Position numbers and translations under genes: made by a program
Source of the DNA: a virus
Lineage: Duplodnaviria > Heunggongvirae > Uroviricota > Caudoviricetes
Virus record (IMG/VR): IMGVR_UViG_3300013903_000020
Strand: one strand, 5' to 3'
Length of the DNA: 5,816 nucleotides
Shown here: positions 1-5,816 of the stretch, piece after piece
How the letters are laid out: each line of letters starts with the position of its first letter
Position numbering within the stretch: position 1 is the stretch's first letter
The notes under the pieces: model-generated
Database searches by the model: none
What the model was told of the DNA's origin: nothing
What the model saw: the letters and a program-made list of their open reading frames with translations, nothing else

Positions 1-180
1 CGAACCTTCCGTGAGAAATATTCCGAGTCTCCCATTTCAGCTACTGACTGGTACTATAGATTTAGCCGCGATGATGGTAAATGTTGTAATGACCTTGAAT
101 TTTTCAGTTGCACTTGCCTGAAATGCGATCGAGCAGGTGAGTGCGAGGCCCCCCAAGAGCATGGTTACTTTTTTTATTGA
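1..180 (+). CDS. 3'-terminal fragment of an unidentified gene entering from upstream of the window (Cys-rich C-terminus ...CCNDLEFFSCTCLKCDRAGECE...)
   Basis: Frame 1 is open from base 1 to a TGA at 178-180 (59 codons) with protein-like composition and several Cys pairs. There is no in-frame start inside the window, so it is absent from the ORF track. Identity unknown. Confidence 0.3.
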   Translation, partial: RTFREKYSESPISATDWYYRFSRDDGKCCNDLEFFSCTCLKCDRAGECEAPQEHGYFFY

Positions 181-260
181 GCGCATAATTTAGTACCTAT
201 AGTGAGCAAAATTAGAACAAACATAGCAACGGCTATGTTTTATAGCATAACCTATACAAA

Positions 261-544
261 ATGAAAATGATTATCATTAACAACTTTGAGGCCCAAAACA
301 GGGATTAGTTTGTTTCCTGCTGGATGAAAGGACTCTTGGGATAGCACATGCCGCACGAAGAGCAGCATTACATGATGTTTTGTCGAATGAGCTACGAATC
401 CTGATAGAAATACGAAACAAGCTAGCACATGGACAATGGATCTATCCCTTCAATAATGAAGGAAATACTGTGGACCCTGATAAATTTAAATTAATCGATA
501 AAGAAAACTTGCAGTCACTTCAATTCAAATATTCATTAGCATAG
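261..544 (+). pseudogene. Disrupted small ORF with a HEPN-like R-x4-H motif (possible abortive-infection or toxin remnant)
   Basis: ATG at 261 opens a 15-codon frame-3 ORF (MKMIIINNFEAQNRD) ending at TAG 306-308. Frame 2 is open from 290 to TAG 542-544 and encodes ...ELRILIEIRNKLAHGQWIY..., with RNKLAH at 413-430. A single-base change in the A-run near 295-298 would fuse both parts into one ORF of about 97 aa. No Shine-Dalgarno sequence upstream of 261. Confidence 0.3.
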
Positions 545-813
545 CATTTAGCTGATGCTGTACATGATTTGGTTGTAAGTCCTACGACATTCGAACGAGA
601 TTTCGAAAGCCATTTTAAAAATTCTTTTACGTCCGCTCCTCGCTCATAACAGGCATTCACTACATTTGTCTTCATTGGCTATGCAAGTCGTAATACAAGG
701 TGGGGCAAAACTGAGACACATAAGGTCTCTCACAAAGGTCTGCAAGGCCTCACATGTATTGAGATGTTAATAAAATGTAGACTTGTAATTTTGATATAAA
801 TGGTAGATAAAAC

Positions 814-826
814 CTTTCCCCAAAAT
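814..826 (+). promoter_or_regulatory. Isolated copy of the TTCCCCAAAA motif; candidate integrase arm-type site on the far (P-arm) side of the icd segment
   Basis: CTTTCCCCAAAAT at 814-826 matches the three tandem repeats at 1175-1211 and lies about 120 bp upstream of where icd homology starts. Confidence 0.3.
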
Positions 827-911
827 AAAAACGAACGTCAATGAAATCAAACGGTTGAATAAAGTTGATTTTGGCTAATAAAAAAACAATAAAATAATTT
901 TTATCATTAAA

Positions 912-924
912 TATCAATTACTTG
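912..924 (+). promoter_or_regulatory. IHF-consensus-like site (WATCAANNNNTTR) next to the putative attachment core
   Basis: TATCAATTACTTG at 912-924 fits the IHF consensus at every specified position, in an AT-rich context about 20 bp upstream of the icd-homologous segment. Confidence 0.3.
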
Positions 925-943
925 AACTTAATGTTTTTATATA

Positions 944-1108
944 CTGCTGCGCCATATGGGCTGGACTGAAGCCGCAGACCTGATTGTTAAAGGTATGGAA
1001 GGCGCAATCAACGCGAAGACCGTAACCTATGACTTCGAACGTCTGATGGAAGGCGCTAAACTGCTGAAATGTTCAGAGTTTGGTGATGCGATCATCAAGA
1101 ATATGTAA
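944..1108 (+). pseudogene. icd: icd 3'-terminal segment (last about 54 codons of isocitrate dehydrogenase), phage-associated attachment-site copy, not a full gene
   Basis: Translation [54 protein letters not shown] matches the Icd C-terminus as I recall it. The frame is closed by TAA at 929-931 and upstream sequence is AT-rich non-icd DNA, so only the 165-bp tail is present. Confidence 0.85.
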
Positions 1109-1131
1109 TCACTACATGTGTTAAATATTGA

Positions 1132-1160
1132 AACGGGCGTATAACACGCCCGTTGTTTTA
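1132..1160 (+). terminator. Rho-independent terminator downstream of the icd segment
   Basis: Stem AACGGGCG (1132-1139), loop TATAACA, stem CGCCCGTT (1147-1154), then GTTTTAT. Sits 24 bp after the icd stop codon. Confidence 0.7.
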
Positions 1161-1174
1161 TGATGATGTAAAAT

Positions 1175-1211
1175 CTTCCCCAAAACTTTCCCCAAAACCC
1201 TTCCCCAAAAC
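1175..1211 (+). repeat. Three tandem direct repeats (C)TTCCCCAAAAC; candidate integrase arm-type binding sites (P'-arm analogue)
   Basis: CTTCCCCAAAAC (1175-1186), TTTCCCCAAAAC (1187-1198) and CCTTCCCCAAAAC (1199-1211) are head-to-tail, ending 11 bp before the int stop codon at 1222-1224. A fourth copy lies at 814-826. Confidence 0.6.
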
Positions 1212-1221
1212 TGGCTATTTT

Positions 1222-2364
1222 CTATGCTGTTTTGATATCTACGATAATCCAGTCTTTACCACGATCATCATTGTATCGGTCGGTCATTTTTCTGGATTTA
1301 TGGCCTAACAACTTTTGCGTATCCAGACCCTGTTCCCGATATAACCGTTCTGACAGAGATCGCTGCTCATGAAATGTGGGCGCAGTTCCTTGCTCCCATT
1401 TTATGCCACATTTTTCCCTGGCCTTTTTAAAAGCCGTTGTCAGAGTATTCGCAGAAACCTGGTCTCCTCTGTTTGCTTGAGAGGTTGTGTGACGGTAATG
1501 GACCAGATATTTACTAACAACAGCATCCCTGCACTGAGATATAACTTCACGAAGGGTAATATTCAGAGCATCGCATTTCAGGTTAAGCGGAATAGCAAGT
1601 TTTGAACCGGTTTTTTCCTGAGTAATGTGCAACATGTCGTCCCAGATATCAGAGAATTTCAAATTGCAGATATCGCCTAAACGTTGTCCAGTGACAAGAG
1701 CAAGTAGCATCCCGCATTTTAAATAGGGCTGCCGTCTGCTTACGCTGTCAAATATTGCCTGCCATTCGGGCAGTGATAATCTTTGGCGGTTTACTCGATT
1801 TCGCGGTTGTTTTGTTGCCTGCGCTGGGTTAAATCCTGGCGGAACATGTCCTGCGTGTTGTGCTTCTTTGAAGACGTCGATTAACACCATTCTCACGACT
1901 TGCGCCATCCTGTTATGACCTTCAGCCTTTACAGCATCAATTATTTCGGCAATATCAAGTGCGGTAATATCCTTGAGGTGTTGCATTCCACAATGCTCAC
2001 GGAAAAGACGAATGGGTTTGCCTTTTTGCCGATAGGAGTTGGGTCTTAGTTCATTATGTTGCAGCCTGTCCTCCTGGATAGAAATATATTTATCAAGCCA
2101 TTCTGTCACCGTAATGTCTGAGCGCCTGCCTTTCATTCTTTCCAGACGCTCATTGACGCTTAATATTTGTCGGGTACGTTGTTCAGCAATAATGGTATTT
2201 GCTTCAGTAGCAACTTGTTTTGCTTCATTCTCATCAGTTCCTAAGCTATGAAAACGACCGGATAGTGGATGTTTGTATTGCCAATATACCTTTCCGGTTC
2301 GCTTATCTAATTTGCAATATAAATTGGGTATAGAGATTTTGTGAGATCGGGGTCTAGCAGCCAT
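1222..2364 (-). CDS. int: Tyrosine-family site-specific integrase (e14 IntE / phage-21 Int-like, icd-targeting)
   Basis: 380-aa ORF with tyrosine-recombinase hallmarks: TGQR, H-E-Q-R (HxxR), and GHKS...TDRY with the catalytic Tyr near the C-terminus. It lies beside the att-like icd segment and overlaps the upstream xis by 11 nt. Confidence 0.95.
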   Translation of the reverse strand: MAARPRSHKISIPNLYCKLDKRTGKVYWQYKHPLSGRFHSLGTDENEAKQVATEANTIIAEQRTRQILSVNERLERMKGRRSDITVTEWLDKYISIQEDRLQHNELRPNSYRQKGKPIRLFREHCGMQHLKDITALDIAEIIDAVKAEGHNRMAQVVRMVLIDVFKEAQHAGHVPPGFNPAQATKQPRNRVNRQRLSLPEWQAIFDSVSRRQPYLKCGMLLALVTGQRLGDICNLKFSDIWDDMLHITQEKTGSKLAIPLNLKCDALNITLREVISQCRDAVVSKYLVHYRHTTSQANRGDQVSANTLTTAFKKAREKCGIKWEQGTAPTFHEQRSLSERLYREQGLDTQKLLGHKSRKMTDRYNDDRGKDWIIVDIKTA

Positions 2365-2590
2365 CAGCGATTATCCGTTGGAGTTTTGGGTTTGCGTTTA
2401 TTGGGAGTTGCGGTTCTGCAAGCGTTCCTACAAAACGGGAATTTCGGTCAATCATCCAGTAGCGACCAACTTTTATAGCTGGTGGGGCCATCATTTTCCC
2501 TTGCGCGTATTTTTTCAGAACTCGCTCACTTGGTGCTAAGTCCCCAAATTCTTCTTTAGCCCAGTCCTGTAAAGTGATTAGTCGAGACAT
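2354..2590 (-). CDS. xis: Excisionase / recombination directionality factor (XisE-like)
   Basis: 78-aa ORF immediately upstream of int with an 11-nt overlap and a strong SD (GAGGAGG, 4 nt before the ATG). Small basic protein in the canonical xis position. Confidence 0.8.
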   Translation of the reverse strand: MSRLITLQDWAKEEFGDLAPSERVLKKYAQGKMMAPPAIKVGRYWMIDRNSRFVGTLAEPQLPINANPKLQRIIADGC

Positions 2591-2729
2591 TTGTCCTCCT
2601 CTTAGCTGCTGAGGGAGTTTGTGACCGATATATCTGACATGATATTAAGCTCATGGCAGGTACATCTCATGACTGGTCATAGAGATAAATTTAATGCTGA
2701 GAAATGCAGTATTGAATTTATCAATTTTT

Positions 2730-2969
2730 CTATTTCCTGCGTATGGCACGTAACTTCTTAATGTGTTCTGCCGTTTCGATCTCTTCTGCTATCCGATCTG
2801 CATCAGCTTTATTCACAGGTTCAAAGTCATGATTAAAGCGGAACATGCTGGCGATACATGTTCTGCCTTTTCGGATGTAGTGAACTTTGTTATGGGTAGA
2901 ACGCAGGATTTTGCAGGGAGTGCCGTGGTGGTCGACGTACCAGGTGTTAGGGTAAATCACTCTGAACAT
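2730..2969 (-). CDS. Hypothetical small protein (79 aa) of the early-left operon
   Basis: ATG-initiated ORF on the same strand as int/xis, overlapping the stop of the upstream gene by 23 nt. Protein-like composition but no motif I recognise; SD is weak. Confidence 0.45.
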   Translation of the reverse strand: MFRVIYPNTWYVDHHGTPCKILRSTHNKVHYIRKGRTCIASMFRFNHDFEPVNKADADRIAEEIETAEHIKKLRAIRRK

Positions 2970-3279
2970 TCTTGACCTTGTGTTGTGCGGATTGATATTC
3001 AGTGGTGATATTCACCTTTATAGCGAACACCTTTACCGGTTTATCGCCAAAGTGCGGATGTGTGATTGTCTTCACTTCATATCCGTCATACGGAACATCA
3101 ATTCTGCGACTGGAATCGTCGCGCTTCGGATATCCCTTTGTGATAATCAGGCGGTCATATTCCCGGAACATAATTCGCTTATTCCAGTAGTCATTACACA
3201 AGCGATACTCTTCCGTTTTCTCTCCGCGAATCATGGCATCGAAGTATTCACTTTTAACAGCAAGTTGCAGGTTAGCCAT
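2947..3279 (-). CDS. ASCH-domain-like protein (GxKxxExR motif)
   Basis: The ORF is open to 3345, but the Met at 3277-3279 gives MANLQ... and its ATG overlaps the TGA of the upstream TraR-like gene (TGATG). IRGEKTEEYR carries the ASCH signature G-x-K-x-x-E-x-R. Confidence 0.6.
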   Translation of the reverse strand: MANLQLAVKSEYFDAMIRGEKTEEYRLCNDYWNKRIMFREYDRLIITKGYPKRDDSSRRIDVPYDGYEVKTITHPHFGDKPVKVFAIKVNITTEYQSAQHKVKNVQSDLP

Positions 3280-3500
3280 CACTTCATCCCCCTTTGTTTG
3301 CGGATAAGCTCCAGATCTTGCTGGCAACTGGCGCAAGTCCGACAACCCTGAACGGCCAGTCGTCTTCGTTCATCTATCGGATCGCCACACTCACAACAAT
3401 GAGTGGCAGATACAGCCAGGTAGTTCAGGCGGCGCATTTTTATTGCTGTGTTGCGCTGTAATTCTTCTATTTCTGATGCTGAATCAATGATGTCTGCCAT
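3279..3500 (-). CDS. TraR/DksA-family C4 zinc-finger protein
   Basis: 73-aa ORF with two CxxC pairs (C-C-E-C ... C-R-T-C) spaced as in the DksA/TraR zinc finger. Typical small early gene of lambdoid prophages. Confidence 0.85.
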   Translation of the reverse strand: MADIIDSASEIEELQRNTAIKMRRLNYLAVSATHCCECGDPIDERRRLAVQGCRTCASCQQDLELIRKQRGMK

Positions 3501-3552
3501 CTTTCATTAATCCCTGAACTGTTGGTTAATACGCTTGAGGGTGAATGCGAAC

Positions 3553-3576
3553 AATAAAAAAGGAGCCTGTAGCTCC
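3553..3576 (-). terminator. Putative rho-independent terminator for leftward transcription
   Basis: On the minus strand: GGAGC-tacag-GCTCC hairpin (plus 3562-3576) followed by TTTTTTAT (plus 3554-3561), 22 nt downstream of the stop at 3599. Stem is only 5 bp. Confidence 0.4.
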
Positions 3577-3598
3577 CTGATGATTTTGCTTTTCATGT

Positions 3599-3880
3599 TC
3601 ACCGTTCCTTAAAGACGCCGTTTAACATGCCGATCGCTAGGCTTAAATGAGTCGGTGTGAATCCCATCAGCGTTACTGTTTCGCGGTGCTTCTTCAGTAC
3701 GCTACGGCAAATGTCATCGACGTTTTTATCCGGAAACTGCTGTCTGGCTTTTTTGATTTCAGAATTAGCCTGACGGGCAATGCTGCGAAGGGCGTTTTCT
3801 TGCTGAGGTGTCACTGAACAAGCCCCATGTCGGCAAGCATAAGCACACAGAATATGAAGCCCGCTGCCAGAAAAATGCAT
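3599..3880 (-). CDS. Small hypothetical early-left protein (93 aa from ATG 3880; 71 aa if started at GTG 3814)
   Basis: ORF in the track. The first 22 residues (MHFSGSGLHILCAYACRHGACS) look non-native and the ATG lacks an SD. A GTG at 3812-3814 overlaps the TGA of a 27-codon upstream ORF (GTGA) and gives VTPQQENALRSIARQ... Confidence 0.5.
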   Translation of the reverse strand: MHFSGSGLHILCAYACRHGACSVTPQQENALRSIARQANSEIKKARQQFPDKNVDDICRSVLKKHRETVTLMGFTPTHLSLAIGMLNGVFKER

Positions 3881-3894
3881 TCAGTGGTTGTCAT
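3811..3894 (-). CDS. Candidate 27-aa hydrophobic peptide (MTTTECIFLAAGFIFCVLMLADMGLVQ), translationally coupled between two small genes
   Basis: ATG at 3892-3894 overlaps the TGA of the 63-aa gene (ATGA) and its own TGA overlaps the GTG at 3814 (GTGA). One predicted hydrophobic helix. Below the ORF-track length threshold; may be spurious. Confidence 0.2.
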   Translation of the reverse strand: MTTTECIFLAAGFIFCVLMLADMGLVQ

Positions 3895-4082
3895 ACCTGG
3901 TCTCTCTCATCTGCTTCTGCTTTCGCCACCATCATTTCCAGCTTTTGTGAAAGGGATGTGGCTAACGTATGAAATTCTTCGTCTGTTTCTACTGGTATTG
4001 GCACAAACCTGACTCCAATTTGAGCAAGGCTATGTGCCATCTCAATACTCGTTCTTAACTCAACAGGAGATGCTTTGTGCAT
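3891..4082 (-). CDS. Small hypothetical protein (63 aa), first gene of the leftward small-gene cluster
   Basis: ATG at 4080-4082 preceded by a strong SD (GGGAGG, 4 nt spacing). Acidic C-terminus and no obvious helix-turn-helix. Confidence 0.6.
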   Translation of the reverse strand: MHKASPVELRTSIEMAHSLAQIGVRFVPIPVETDEEFHTLATSLSQKLEMMVAKAEADERDQV

Positions 4083-4196
4083 ACCGCCTCCCGTTTATTA
4101 TTTATCTTCTCAGCCAGCCGCTGTGCTTTCAGTGGATTTCTGATAACAGAAAGGCCGGGAAATACCCAGCCTCGCTTTGTAACGGAGTGGACGAAA

Positions 4197-4619
4197 GTGA
4201 TCGCGCCTAATCAGGATGTCGTTGCCGCACTCATTGTGAATGAGTATCGAGCACAGGGCGGCGTCACCATCGATTTTCCTGATGATGTCAGTCGGGCACG
4301 CCAGAAGCTGTTCCGCTTCCTCGATAACAAATTCGATTCTGAAAAATACCGAAATAACGTGCGTGAACTGACCCCGGCAATTCTGGCGGTACTACCGCTG
4401 GAATATCGCGGCCACCTGGTTGAGCAGGATAGCTTCATGGCTAGGTTGGCTGAAATGGAAAAGGAACTCAGTGAGGCAAAACAGGCTGTCATTCTCAACG
4501 CACCACGCCACCAGAAATTGAAGGAAATTAGTGAAGGTATTGTGTCGATGTTTCGTGTGGACCCGGATCTGGCTGGTCCATTGATGGCGATGGTTACTAC
4601 CATGCTGGGGGCGATATGA
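4197..4619 (+). CDS. Early regulatory protein in the cII slot (possibly CII/YdaT-like), immediately upstream of the replication initiator
   Basis: The ORF is open from GTG 4077, but that start overlaps the divergent 63-aa gene and the first 40 residues look non-native. GTG 4197 has GGAG 9 nt upstream and gives 140 aa with a coiled-coil-like segment (MARLAEMEKELSEAKQ). Family not verifiable by eye. Confidence 0.5.
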   Translation: MIAPNQDVVAALIVNEYRAQGGVTIDFPDDVSRARQKLFRFLDNKFDSEKYRNNVRELTPAILAVLPLEYRGHLVEQDSFMARLAEMEKELSEAKQAVILNAPRHQKLKEISEGIVSMFRVDPDLAGPLMAMVTTMLGAI

Positions 4620-4705
4620 CAGGTTCAGAAATGGCGAAAGCCGGTCTGCTGGAACAGAACCGACTTTCAGGTGCAAATCGTAACACACTCATTGCGGGAG
4701 GAATT

Positions 4706-5635
4706 ATGGCAAACACTGCTGAGATATTCAATTTTCCAGTGCCGGATGCGGCACAAAAGGAGCCGCGCGTGGCAGATCTCGATGATGGTTATACGCGCAT
4801 TGCAAATGAGTTGCTGGAAGCTGTGATGCTGGCCGGATTAACACAGCACCAGCTTCTGGTCTTTCTGGCTGTCATGCGCAAAACATATGGCTTTAATAAA
4901 AAACTGGATTGGGTTAGCAACGAGCAACTTTCCGAATTAACCGGGATATTGCCGCACAAGTGTTCTGCTGCAAAAAGTGTTCTGGTAAAGCGTGGGATTT
5001 TTATTCAGAGCGGGCGGAATACCGGCATTAATAATGTGGTCAGTGAATGGTCAACATTACCCGAATCAGGTAAGAAAAATAAAGTTTACCTGAAAGAGGT
5101 AAATTTACCTGAATCAGGTAAAAAAAGTTTACCCAAATCAGGTAAAGGCGTTTACCCGAATCAGGTAAACACAAAAGACAAACTAACAAAAGACAATATA
5201 AAACCTTTTTCGTCCGAGAATTCTGGCGAATCCTCTGACCAACCAGAAAACGATCTTCCTGTGGTGAAACCGGATGCTGCAATTCAGAGCGGCAGCAAGT
5301 GGGGGACAGCAGAAGACCTGACCGCCGCAGAGTGGATGTTTGACATGGTGAAGACCATCGCGCCATCAGCCAGAAAACCGAATTTTGCAGGGTGGGCTAA
5401 CGATATCCGCCTGATGCGTGAACGTGACGGACGTAACCACCGCGACATGTGCGTGCTGTTCCGCTGGGCATGCCAGGACAACTTCTGGTCCGGTAACGTG
5501 CTAAGTCCGGCCAAACTCCGCGACAAGTGGACCCAACTCGAAATCAACCGTAACAAGCAACAGGCAGGCATGATAGCCAGAAAACCAAAACTCGACCTGA
5601 CAAACACTGACTGGATTTGCGGGGTGGATTTATGA
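4706..5635 (+). CDS. O: Lambda O-like replication initiator
   Basis: From ATG 4706 (SD GGGAGG at 4696-4701) the N-terminus MANTAEIFNF...VADLDDGYTRIANELLEA...MRKTYGFNK...SEQLSELTG matches the lambda O N-terminal DNA-binding domain as I recall it. An iteron array sits in the central linker. The ORF-track start at 4616 is probably a spurious extension. Confidence 0.9.
   Translation: MANTAEIFNFPVPDAAQKEPRVADLDDGYTRIANELLEAVMLAGLTQHQLLVFLAVMRKTYGFNKKLDWVSNEQLSELTGILPHKCSAAKSVLVKRGIFIQSGRNTGINNVVSEWSTLPESGKKNKVYLKEVNLPESGKKSLPKSGKGVYPNQVNTKDKLTKDNIKPFSSENSGESSDQPENDLPVVKPDAAIQSGSKWGTAEDLTAAEWMFDMVKTIAPSARKPNFAGWANDIRLMRERDGRNHRDMCVLFRWACQDNFWSGNVLSPAKLRDKWTQLEINRNKQQAGMIARKPKLDLTNTDWICGVDL
5057..5210 (+). 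repeat. Origin of replication: five 19-bp iterons (TTTACCyGAATCAGGTAAA, each an internal TTTACC/GGTAAA inverted repeat) followed by an A+T-rich segment
   Basis: Iterons at about 5057-5073, 5085-5103, 5104-5122, 5128-5146 and 5151-5169, then an AT-rich tract at 5170-5210. They lie inside the O-like gene linker, as in ori-lambda. Confidence 0.75.
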
Positions 5636-5816
5636 AAAACATCGCCGCACAGATGGTTAACTTTGACCGTGAGCAGATGCGTCGGATCGCCAACAACATG
5701 CCGGAACAGTACGACGAAAAGCCGCAGGTACAGCAGGTAGCGCAGATCATCAACGGTGTGTTCAGCCAGTTACTGGCAACTTTCCCGGCCGGGCTGGCTA
5801 ACTGCGACCCGAGTGA
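5632..5816 (+). CDS. P: Lambda P-like replication protein (helicase loader), 5' partial, continues beyond the window
   Basis: ATG at 5632 overlaps the O stop (ATGA) with GGGGTGGA upstream. MKNIAAQMVNFDREQMRRIANNMPEQYDEKPQVQQVAQIINGVFSQLLATFPAGLAN closely matches the lambda P N-terminus from memory. Confidence 0.9.
   Translation, partial: MKNIAAQMVNFDREQMRRIANNMPEQYDEKPQVQQVAQIINGVFSQLLATFPAGLANCDPS

What the first reader, a model, noticed from the sequence alone, without database searches (positions are those of the whole stretch)
261..544. Disrupted small ORF with a HEPN-like R-x4-H motif at the phage/att boundary
The ORF is split by an apparent single-base frameshift in a short A-run. The larger part encodes ...LHDVLSNELRILIEIRNKLAHGQWIY..., in which E-x-R-N-x-x-x-H resembles the catalytic motif of HEPN RNases found in abortive-infection and toxin-antitoxin systems. 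Regions next to integrase/att are common sites for defence cargo, so this may be a decayed or phase-variable defence gene.
Basis: partly seen in the sequence, partly recalled or inferred. Interest (0 to 1): 0.55.

Follow-up and report, generated by a model that had tools for sequence, protein, structure and literature searches.

The report
Dead fragment of a HEPN-like gene
The "split small ORF" is a non-functional middle piece (window 320-651) of a 243-codon, probably HEPN-type RNase gene, left in the cargo slot beside the attachment site of a phage-21-like phage; as a dead gene fragment it is ordinary, though its intact parent family is uncharacterised.

Summary
The motif is real. Window 413-430 encodes R-N-K-L-A-H inside ...ELRILIEIRNKLAHGQW.... 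This stretch is 97% identical in DNA to codons 109-207 of an intact 243-aa gene in Serratia rubidaea, and it matches phrog_12663 (E 5e-43).

The proposed single-base frameshift in the A-run is wrong. Bases 261-319 are phage backbone, shared with phage 21, which lacks the gene. The gene is cut off at codon 109, at a CTGG junction (320-323). It also carries a TAG nonsense codon (542-544). A 160-bp deletion (junction 613-621) removes the last ~36 codons.

Related phages (4C10, 4A7) keep the 160 bp but have a different stop codon. Substitutions look neutral (11 non-synonymous to 3 synonymous). Of 5426 complete E. coli genomes, 298 carry the relic and only 2 carry an intact copy.

Verdict: an ordinary pseudogene fragment of an uncharacterised, probably solo-HEPN, defence-type gene.

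The parts
37..186 (-). 5' end of sitA (sitABCD Fe/Mn transporter, phage cargo). Homology to sitA stops at base 63.
219..240 (.). Perfect palindrome AAACATAGC-N4-GCTATGTTT in the sitA upstream region. It looks like an MntR box (from memory, not verified here).
   Evidence: (I3)
261..305 (+). Spurious 14-codon ORF (MKMIIINNFEAQNRD*) containing the A-run. It is phage backbone, not part of the HEPN-like gene.
   Evidence: Bases 63-323 are shared at 98% with phage 21, which lacks the gene. tblastn of the intact protein finds nothing upstream of base 320.
320..323 (+). CTGG microhomology at the junction between the phage backbone and codon 109 of the gene. This is the 5' truncation point.
   Evidence: (three-way junction sequences)
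320..651 (+). Pseudogene relic of a 243-codon HEPN-like gene: codons 109-207, then, after the deletion junction, the last ~35 bp of the 84 bp of 3' flank that the related phages retain.
   Evidence: 97% DNA identity to S. rubidaea L019 6328-6629 and 6781-6819. tblastn matches residues 109-211 only. phrog_12663 positions 111-208 of 246.
413..430 (+). Codons for R140-N-K-L-A-H145, the R-x4-H motif (S. rubidaea numbering).
   Evidence: R, N and H are invariant in A3.
542..544 (+). TAG nonsense codon at codon 183. It is GAG in S. rubidaea and CAG in phage 4C10 and in protein P0001.
613..621 (+). Junction of a 160-bp deletion between imperfect direct repeats TTTT(T)AAAAA(A)TT. It removes codons ~208-243, the stop codon and ~49 bp of flank.
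956..1108 (+). Phage-borne copy of the last 50 codons of icd (the att-associated duplication).
1132..1154 (+). Terminator-like hairpin after the icd fragment.
   Evidence: Annotated as a terminator in phage 21.
1174..1209 (+). Three tandem YYTTCCCCAAAA repeats, annotated as attP subsites P1-P3 in phage 21.
1222..2364 (-). Phage-21-type tyrosine integrase.
2354..2590 (-). Excisionase.

Best explanation
Window 320-651 is an inert pseudogene fragment. A phage-21-like, icd-integrating lambdoid phage has a variable cargo slot between the sitABCD operon and attP. An illegitimate recombination at a 4-bp CTGG microhomology left only the 3' part of a foreign 243-codon gene in that slot, from codon 109 onward. 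In the lineage of this window the fragment then lost its last ~36 codons by a 160-bp slippage deletion between TTTTAAAAATT repeats, and gained a TAG stop at codon 183. The upstream ATG and A-run belong to the sitA promoter side of the phage backbone and never formed part of the gene. The fragment lacks the two long N-terminal core helices and the C-terminal helices, so it cannot fold or act.

The intact ancestor (inferred) is a stand-alone, all-helical HEPN-type ribonuclease. It would use the invariant R...H pair at a dimer interface and serve as a single-gene abortive-infection or anti-phage module, kept silent until triggered, as shown for HepS of Gifsy-1.

Shown: the homology, the breakpoints, the lesions, the population pattern, motif conservation and the absence of a conserved partner gene. 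Inferred: RNase activity and a defence role.
For: - Relic and lesions: DNA alignments with S. rubidaea, phage 4C10 and phage 21. Only residues 109-211 of the intact protein are found anywhere in the window.
- Independent decay: 4C10-type alleles have TAA at codon 208. The window type has the deletion plus TAG. Some genomes keep only ~100 bp. P0001 has the deletion but Q at codon 183.
- Neutral substitution pattern: 11 non-synonymous to 3 synonymous differences.
- Population: the relic is in 298 of 5426 E. coli genomes, and the 5' half in only 2. No feature is annotated over the relic in the RefSeq genomes and three phage records listed, though three other phage records call a short hypothetical protein there.
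- Slot variability: phage 21 holds 1.5 kb of unrelated genes between the same boundaries.
- Family: 478 representative clusters of about 240-250 aa; found in 239 of 185,579 species genomes across bacteria and archaea; R146, N147 and H151 invariant; no conserved neighbour in 67 loci.
- Neighbours are often defence genes: Septu-like PtuAB, GmrSD/NsnA, Mrr, SduA_C, TIR, integron integrase.
- HepS precedent: PMC13043305.
Against: - The HEPN assignment is not backed by any curated profile. Pfam, NCBIfam and PADLOC give nothing significant.
- Foldseek against PDB and BFVD finds nothing.
- hhalign against a RiboL-PSP/MAE_28990 HEPN family gives 1.3% probability.
- No experiment exists for any family member.
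- Non-expression of the relic is inferred, not measured. A weak sigma-70-like match lies inside it at 430-457, but such matches are at chance frequency.
Confidence: 0.8

Rival explanations
1. One reading: a small (~97 aa) HEPN gene is split by a one-base frameshift in the A-run. It would be repairable or phase-variable, switching a defence gene on and off.
For: Frame 1 (261-305) and frame 3 (290-541) overlap near the A-run, so inserting one base would fuse them.
Against: Family homology begins at base 320, not 261. Bases 261-319 are present at 98% in phage 21, which lacks the gene. Intact relatives are 243-250 aa and have 108 further N-terminal codons that are absent here. The A4 tract is the same length in all three aligned sequences and is too short for slippage-based switching (general knowledge). 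The copy also carries a nonsense codon and a 160-bp deletion.
Confidence: 0.02
2. The truncated fragment is retained on purpose. A short peptide carrying the motif helix (the 54-aa ORF 380-544, or the 120-aa form P0001 in other strains) would poison dimerisation of an intact HEPN defence protein, acting as a phage-borne anti-defence decoy.
For: The fragment persists in 298 E. coli genomes and 6 phage records. Gene callers have called a 120-aa ORF on 53 contigs. HEPN active sites are composite dimer sites (PMC13043305).
Against: Different alleles carry different stop codons and deletions. The substitution pattern is neutral, 11 non-synonymous to 3 synonymous. No start codon or ribosome-binding site is conserved. 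The intact target is nearly absent from E. coli, in 2 of 5426 genomes. Persistence is explained by hitch-hiking with sitABCD and the phage.
Confidence: 0.03
3. The parent family is not a HEPN nuclease. It would be a helical protein of some other function (for example regulatory or nucleic-acid binding), whose conserved RNxxxH happens to resemble the HEPN motif.
Against: R, N and H are three of only five invariant residues over 85 sequences with ~28% mean identity. Ten or more different HEPN structures align over nearly their whole length. Independent weak motif-level hits go to Cas13b/e, AbiD, RiboL-PSP-HEPN and an Abi PHROG. The sporadic, mobile, defence-island distribution fits.
Confidence: 0.2
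4. The DNA of the relic has been co-opted as regulatory sequence, for example an upstream element of the divergent sitABCD promoter or an integration-host-factor or Int arm region of attP.
For: It lies between the sitA promoter region (palindrome at 219-240) and attP. It is AT-rich, at 38% GC.
Against: Phage 21 replaces exactly this segment with unrelated DNA yet keeps sitABCD and attP. The segment tolerates a 160-bp deletion and further truncation. There is no Rfam hit.
Confidence: 0.03

Closest known systems
HepS (STM14_3211), the solo HEPN abortive-infection anticodon nuclease of Salmonella prophage Gifsy-1 (PMC13043305)
   Same: Both are single-gene proteins of 250 aa or less with one R-x4-H motif, no conserved partner or antitoxin gene, and carriage in accessory slots of lambdoid prophages. 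The intact E. coli copies lie between the replication genes and the late-region genes (hokD, rem, ydfU, ydfT). This resembles the position reported for hepS.
HEPN toxins of HEPN-MNT (HepT/MntA) toxin-antitoxin pairs (PDB 7ae2, 5yep, 4nqf)
   Different: No adjacent MNT nucleotidyltransferase, or any other conserved neighbour, was found in 67 loci. The protein is about 110 aa longer, with extra N- and C-terminal helices. Sequence identity is only 8-13%.
Abi-type HEPN families (AbiD/AbiF Abi_2, AbiA C-terminal HEPN, RiboL-PSP-HEPN PF18735, MAE_28990 PF18737)
   Different: All hits fall below the curated thresholds. hhalign against a PF18735/PF18737 family gives 1.3%.
phrog_12663 (PHROGs v4, unknown function)
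   Same: The relic matches profile positions 111-208 of 246 with E 4.7e-43. This is the same family.
   Different: The PHROG carries no functional annotation, and the window copy is only a fragment.
Moron or cargo slot next to attP in lambdoid phages (the lambda b-region; phage 21 sit-attP interval)
   Same: The relic occupies the interval between sitA and attP. In phage 21 this interval holds 1.5 kb of unrelated small genes, with sharp shared boundaries at window 323 and 662.
   Different: Here the slot holds only a dead fragment rather than a working gene.

Membership tests
HEPN superfamily | Conserved R-x4-6-H motif (often R-N/H/D-x3-H) | tested here: met
   R146, N147 and H151 are invariant in 85 sequences with ~28% mean identity. 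The motif is present in the window at 413-430.
HEPN superfamily | All-alpha up-and-down helical-bundle HEPN fold | tested here: inconclusive
HEPN superfamily | Significant profile match to a curated HEPN family | tested here: not met
   Pfam, NCBIfam and PADLOC give only sub-threshold hits (E 0.004-0.06). hhalign against a PF18735/PF18737 alignment gives probability 1.3%. A PDB sequence-profile search finds nothing relevant.
HEPN superfamily | Metal-independent RNase activity that depends on the R and H residues | not testable with these tools
   This needs biochemistry on the intact S. rubidaea or E. coli NH-21 protein.
phrog_12663 / the ~245-aa 'RNKLAHGQW' family | Significant full-profile match | tested here: met
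   E 4.7e-43 to phrog_12663. 97% DNA identity to the intact S. rubidaea gene. Profile search finds 478 clusters.
Functional gene (intact member of that family) | Complete ORF with its own start codon, the N-terminal ~108 codons and the C-terminal ~36 codons | tested here: not met
   Only residues 109-211 are found in the window. There is a TAG at 542-544 and a 160-bp deletion.
HEPN-MNT type II/VII toxin-antitoxin | Adjacent MNT (nucleotidyltransferase) antitoxin gene | tested here: not met
   No neighbour cluster is shared by more than 3 of 67 loci. None is seen in the gene tables.
HepS-like solo HEPN abortive-infection proteins | Stand-alone gene without a partner, carried on a prophage | tested here: met
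   No conserved neighbour. The intact E. coli copies lie in a lambdoid prophage, and the relic lies in phage genomes.
HepS-like solo HEPN abortive-infection proteins | Sequence or structure homology to HepS (PDB 9OIK), trigger by a tail-tip protein, and tRNA anticodon cleavage | not tested
Phase-variable contingency gene | A long homopolymer or short-repeat tract inside the ORF, with length polymorphism between strains | tested here: not met
   The tract is A4 and lies outside the gene-derived DNA. It has the same length in the window, phage 4C10 and strain CEA601S.

The most novel reading that the evidence does not exclude
The 5'-truncated fragment is kept by phage-21-like phages as an anti-defence decoy. 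A short peptide carrying the motif helix would form dead heterodimers with an intact HEPN defence protein of the same family in the host.
Probability: 0.03. Interest if true: 0.6.

Novelty: new member of a known kind. Interest (0 to 1): 0.22.

Why it matters
The relic itself matters little. It is a dead passenger that no feature covers in the RefSeq genomes inspected, found in about 5% of complete E. coli genomes, including ST131 strains. Its main use is as a marker of cargo turnover in the sit-attP slot of icd-integrating phages.

The indirect value is that it points to an uncharacterised, widely scattered family of about 245 aa (phrog_12663). The family is absent from Pfam and PADLOC and has an invariant RNxxxH motif and a stand-alone, defence-island or prophage lifestyle. 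Intact, testable copies exist in S. rubidaea NCTC12971 and in E. coli NH-21 (WP_338850341.1). If these prove to be self-contained HEPN abortive-infection nucleases, they would add a second solo-HEPN family alongside HepS.

Tried and rejected
1. I first read the frame-2 peptide KFFYVRSSLITG (about 620-655) as a frameshifted continuation of ...KLFQVRTNLVTK.... I rejected this because DNA alignment shows that the real QVRTNL codons lie in the 160 bp deleted from the window.
2. Pfam, NCBIfam and PADLOC scans of the fragment and of eight full-length or near-full-length relatives gave no significant family.
3. PDB sequence-profile searches with A2 and A3 returned only chance hits: ATG16 and a ribosome-inactivating protein.
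4. Foldseek against PDB and BFVD found nothing with E below 0.03. The afdb50 library was unavailable.
5. hhalign of the family against one protein, and then against a 31-sequence alignment of the RiboL-PSP/MAE_28990 HEPN family, was not significant.
6. A search for a conserved partner gene in 67 loci found none.
7. I looked for HepS in the LT2 Gifsy-1 record to compare it directly, but could not identify it there.
8. Longer family members were scanned for fused domains; none was recognised.
9. An Rfam scan of the window found nothing.
10. A literature search for the MntR-box sequence found nothing in the held library.
11. Window bases 1-62 have no match in complete E. coli genomes.

Full report
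**What is in the sequence**

The + strand, frame 3, reads GPKQGLVCFLLDERTLGIAHAARRAALHDVLSNELRILIEIRNKLAHGQWIYPFNNEGNTVDPDKFKLIDKENLQSLQFKYSLA*HLADAVHDLVVSPTTFERDFESHFKNSFTSAPRS*. Frame 1 gives a 14-codon ORF, MKMIIINNFEAQNRD*, starting at 261. The mechanical ORF list shows a 54-aa ORF at 380-544. So the quoted peptide and the E-I-R-N-K-L-A-H motif (R at 413-415, H at 428-430) are really present.

**Genomic setting**

The window has the attP-type order of a phage-21-like lambdoid phage:
- the sitA 5' end (37-186, minus strand);
- the relic;
- a copy of the last 50 codons of icd (956-1108);
- a terminator (1132-1154);
- three YYTTCCCCAAAA repeats (1174-1209);
- integrase (1222-2364, minus strand) and excisionase (2354-2590, minus strand).

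This rests. Phages 4A7, 4C10, D2, 1W and 3W have the same order and contain the relic. In 293 complete E. coli chromosomes the same sitA-relic-icd' block covers at least 80% of the query. In the one locus whose annotation was inspected (strain CEA601S), the block is followed by ymgL and ycgX, which is the prophage right end.

**The frameshift idea fails**

A blastn search with the homologous gene of Serratia rubidaea NCTC12971 (found) showed the following. The E. coli relic is 96-97% identical in DNA to positions 349-761 of that query, that is, from codon 109 of a 243-codon ORF through 84 bp of 3' flank.

The three-way junction is:
- S. rubidaea ...AAAGCCCCT|CTGGATGAAAG
- window ...TTGTTTCCTG|CTGGATGAAAG
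- phage 21 ...TTGTTTCCTGCTGG|CGACGTG

The phage backbone shared with phage 21 runs up to window base 323, and gene homology starts at base 320. The junction is therefore a 4-bp CTGG microhomology. Phage 21 has 98% identity to window 63-323 and 97% to 662-4209, but holds 1.5 kb of unrelated genes (CPT_21_29 to 32) in between.

It follows that 261-319, with the ATG and the A-run, is backbone on the sitA promoter side and was never part of this gene. tblastn of the intact protein against the whole window finds residues 109-211 only. The A-run has the same length in the window, phage 4C10 and strain CEA601S.

**Further lesions**

Codon 183 is GAG in S. rubidaea, CAG in phage 4C10 and in database protein P0001, and TAG in the window (542-544).

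Relative to 4C10 and S. rubidaea, the window lacks 160 bp. The deleted segment is bounded by TTTT(T)AAAAA(A)TT repeats, with the junction at 613-621. This removes codons ~208-243 and the stop codon.

The 4C10-type allele keeps those 160 bp but has AAA changed to TAA at codon 208. Other E. coli genomes retain only ~100 bp. P0001 combines the deletion with Q at codon 183, so the deletion probably preceded the TAG mutation (inference).

Against S. rubidaea, the 4C10 allele shows 11 non-synonymous changes (one of them nonsense) and 3 synonymous changes. This is the ratio expected without selection.

**Population**

- 298 of 5426 complete E. coli genomes match the gene.
- Only two, NH-21 and 2018-11-1BCC, have the 5' half, i.e. 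an intact copy at 92% identity to S. rubidaea.
- 246 genomes match the 160-bp segment, 217 of them over at least 80% of it. By subtraction, roughly 50-80 carry the deletion allele seen here.
- No feature is annotated over the relic in the RefSeq genomes listed or in three of the six phage records; the other three phage records call a short hypothetical protein there.

**The parent family**

The fragment matches phrog_12663 (unknown function) at E 4.7e-43, over profile positions 111-208 of 246. Database relatives called at 187-209 aa are mis-started; the true ORFs are about 245 aa.

A profile search finds 478 clusters at the 50% identity level, mostly 240-250 aa. The family occurs in 239 of 185,579 species genomes. 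These are scattered over Xanthomonadales, Pseudomonas, Serratia, Pantoea, cyanobacteria, spirochaetes, Firmicutes, Actinobacteria and methanogenic archaea.

Over 85 full-length members with ~28% mean identity, only N21, W96, R146, N147 and H151 are invariant. No neighbouring gene is shared by more than 3 of 67 loci.

The neighbours are often defence genes:
- Mrr and HNH on a Kovacikia plasmid;
- SduA_C;
- TIR and kinase/NACHT proteins;
- GmrSD/NsnA-like plus a broken RiboL-PSP-HEPN gene in S. rubidaea;
- a Septu-like PtuAB pair in E. coli NH-21, where the gene lies in a Rac/Qin-like prophage between the replication genes and the late-region genes (hokD, rem, ydfU, ydfT);
- integron integrases in three loci.

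The gene is AT-rich: 39% GC against 53% for the S. rubidaea locus.

**Is it HEPN?**

Evidence for:
- the invariant R-N-x3-H motif;
- an AlphaFold model of very high confidence (pLDDT 95.6, pTM 0.90, all helical);
- independent weak motif-level hits to Cas13b/e HEPN, AbiD, RiboL-PSP-HEPN and an 'abortive infection' PHROG.

Evidence against:
- none of these passes a curated threshold;
- Pfam and PADLOC are otherwise empty;
- PDB sequence-profile searches are empty;
- Foldseek is empty;
- hhalign against a 31-sequence RiboL-PSP/MAE_28990 alignment gives 1.3%;

I rate HEPN membership at about 0.7-0.8.

**Mechanism**

For the window copy there is none. It lacks helices 1-2 (residues 13-72 of the model) and the last two to three helices, and it has no start codon of its own, so it is an inert relic.

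For the ancestor (inferred), I propose a stand-alone HEPN RNase held inactive until a phage cue, acting by abortive infection. The closest worked example is HepS of Gifsy-1. HepS is a solo HEPN protein without a partner gene, located in an accessory slot of a lambdoid prophage. It is triggered by tail-tip protein J and cleaves tRNA anticodon loops (PMC13043305). I found no evidence of homology to HepS. The motif position and the terminal beta-strands differ.

**Verdict**

The motif and the ORF are real and homologous to a real family. However, it is not a frameshifted 97-aa gene and not phase-variable.

The feature is an ordinary pseudogene fragment, so interest is low. The only forward-looking value is the pointer to an uncharacterised solo-HEPN-like family with intact, testable copies.

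Noticed in passing
window 1-62: The first 62 bases do not continue sitA, whose homology stops at base 63. They match nothing in 5426 complete E. coli genomes or in the phage collection. This is an unexplained junction that truncates sitA after about 41 codons.
   Followed up: partly
window 219-240: A perfect palindrome, AAACATAGC-N4-GCTATGTTT, lies 33 bp upstream of the sitA start. From memory it resembles the E. coli MntR operator of mntH. A literature search in the held library did not confirm this.
   Followed up: partly
window 323-662 versus L093 (phage 21) 1762-3260: The interval between sitA and attP is a swap slot with sharp boundaries. In phage 21 it holds four small genes, including CPT_21_31 (252 aa), which has no significant PADLOC hit (it was not scanned against Pfam), instead of the HEPN-like relic.
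   Followed up: partly
L019 5896-5963 (S. rubidaea): ARAGORN calls a 68-nt tRNA-like element (His, unusual anticodon ATG), followed by a hairpin, 40 bp upstream of the intact gene. The same DNA is conserved upstream of the intact E. coli NH-21 copy (L090 8866-9024), but ARAGORN does not call a tRNA there.
   Followed up: partly
L090 10542-14219 (E. coli NH-21): A Septu-like PtuA/PtuB pair (PADLOC PDC-M01A/B, E 1e-101 and 1e-85) lies next to the intact gene. Its ATPase gene is split by ISEc52.
   Followed up: partly
L014 51-1217; L029 2950-4107; L030 1982-2524: Integron-integrase-like tyrosine recombinases lie within 0.5-3.5 kb of the family gene in three unrelated genomes. This suggests the gene also travels as an integron cassette.
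   Followed up: no
P0160 (452 aa, metagenomic family member): It has a ~200-aa C-terminal extension containing LLVEGETDK, which is reminiscent of a Toprim motif. Pfam recognises no domain, so this is unverified.
   Followed up: partly
window 4210-5816: The right-hand 1.6 kb diverges from phages 4A7, 4C10 and 21; all listed phage matches end at 4209. It contains ORFs of 180 aa (4077-4619) and 339 aa (4616-5635) that I did not examine.
   Followed up: no
L003 and L004 (and many database entries): Automatic gene calls for this family start at an internal ATG and give 187-209 aa. The full ORFs are about 245 aa and have a conserved N-terminus: M-x-R-N-P-S/T-K-I/L-Y-x-x-H-V-A-N-L-R-E-L.
   Followed up: yes
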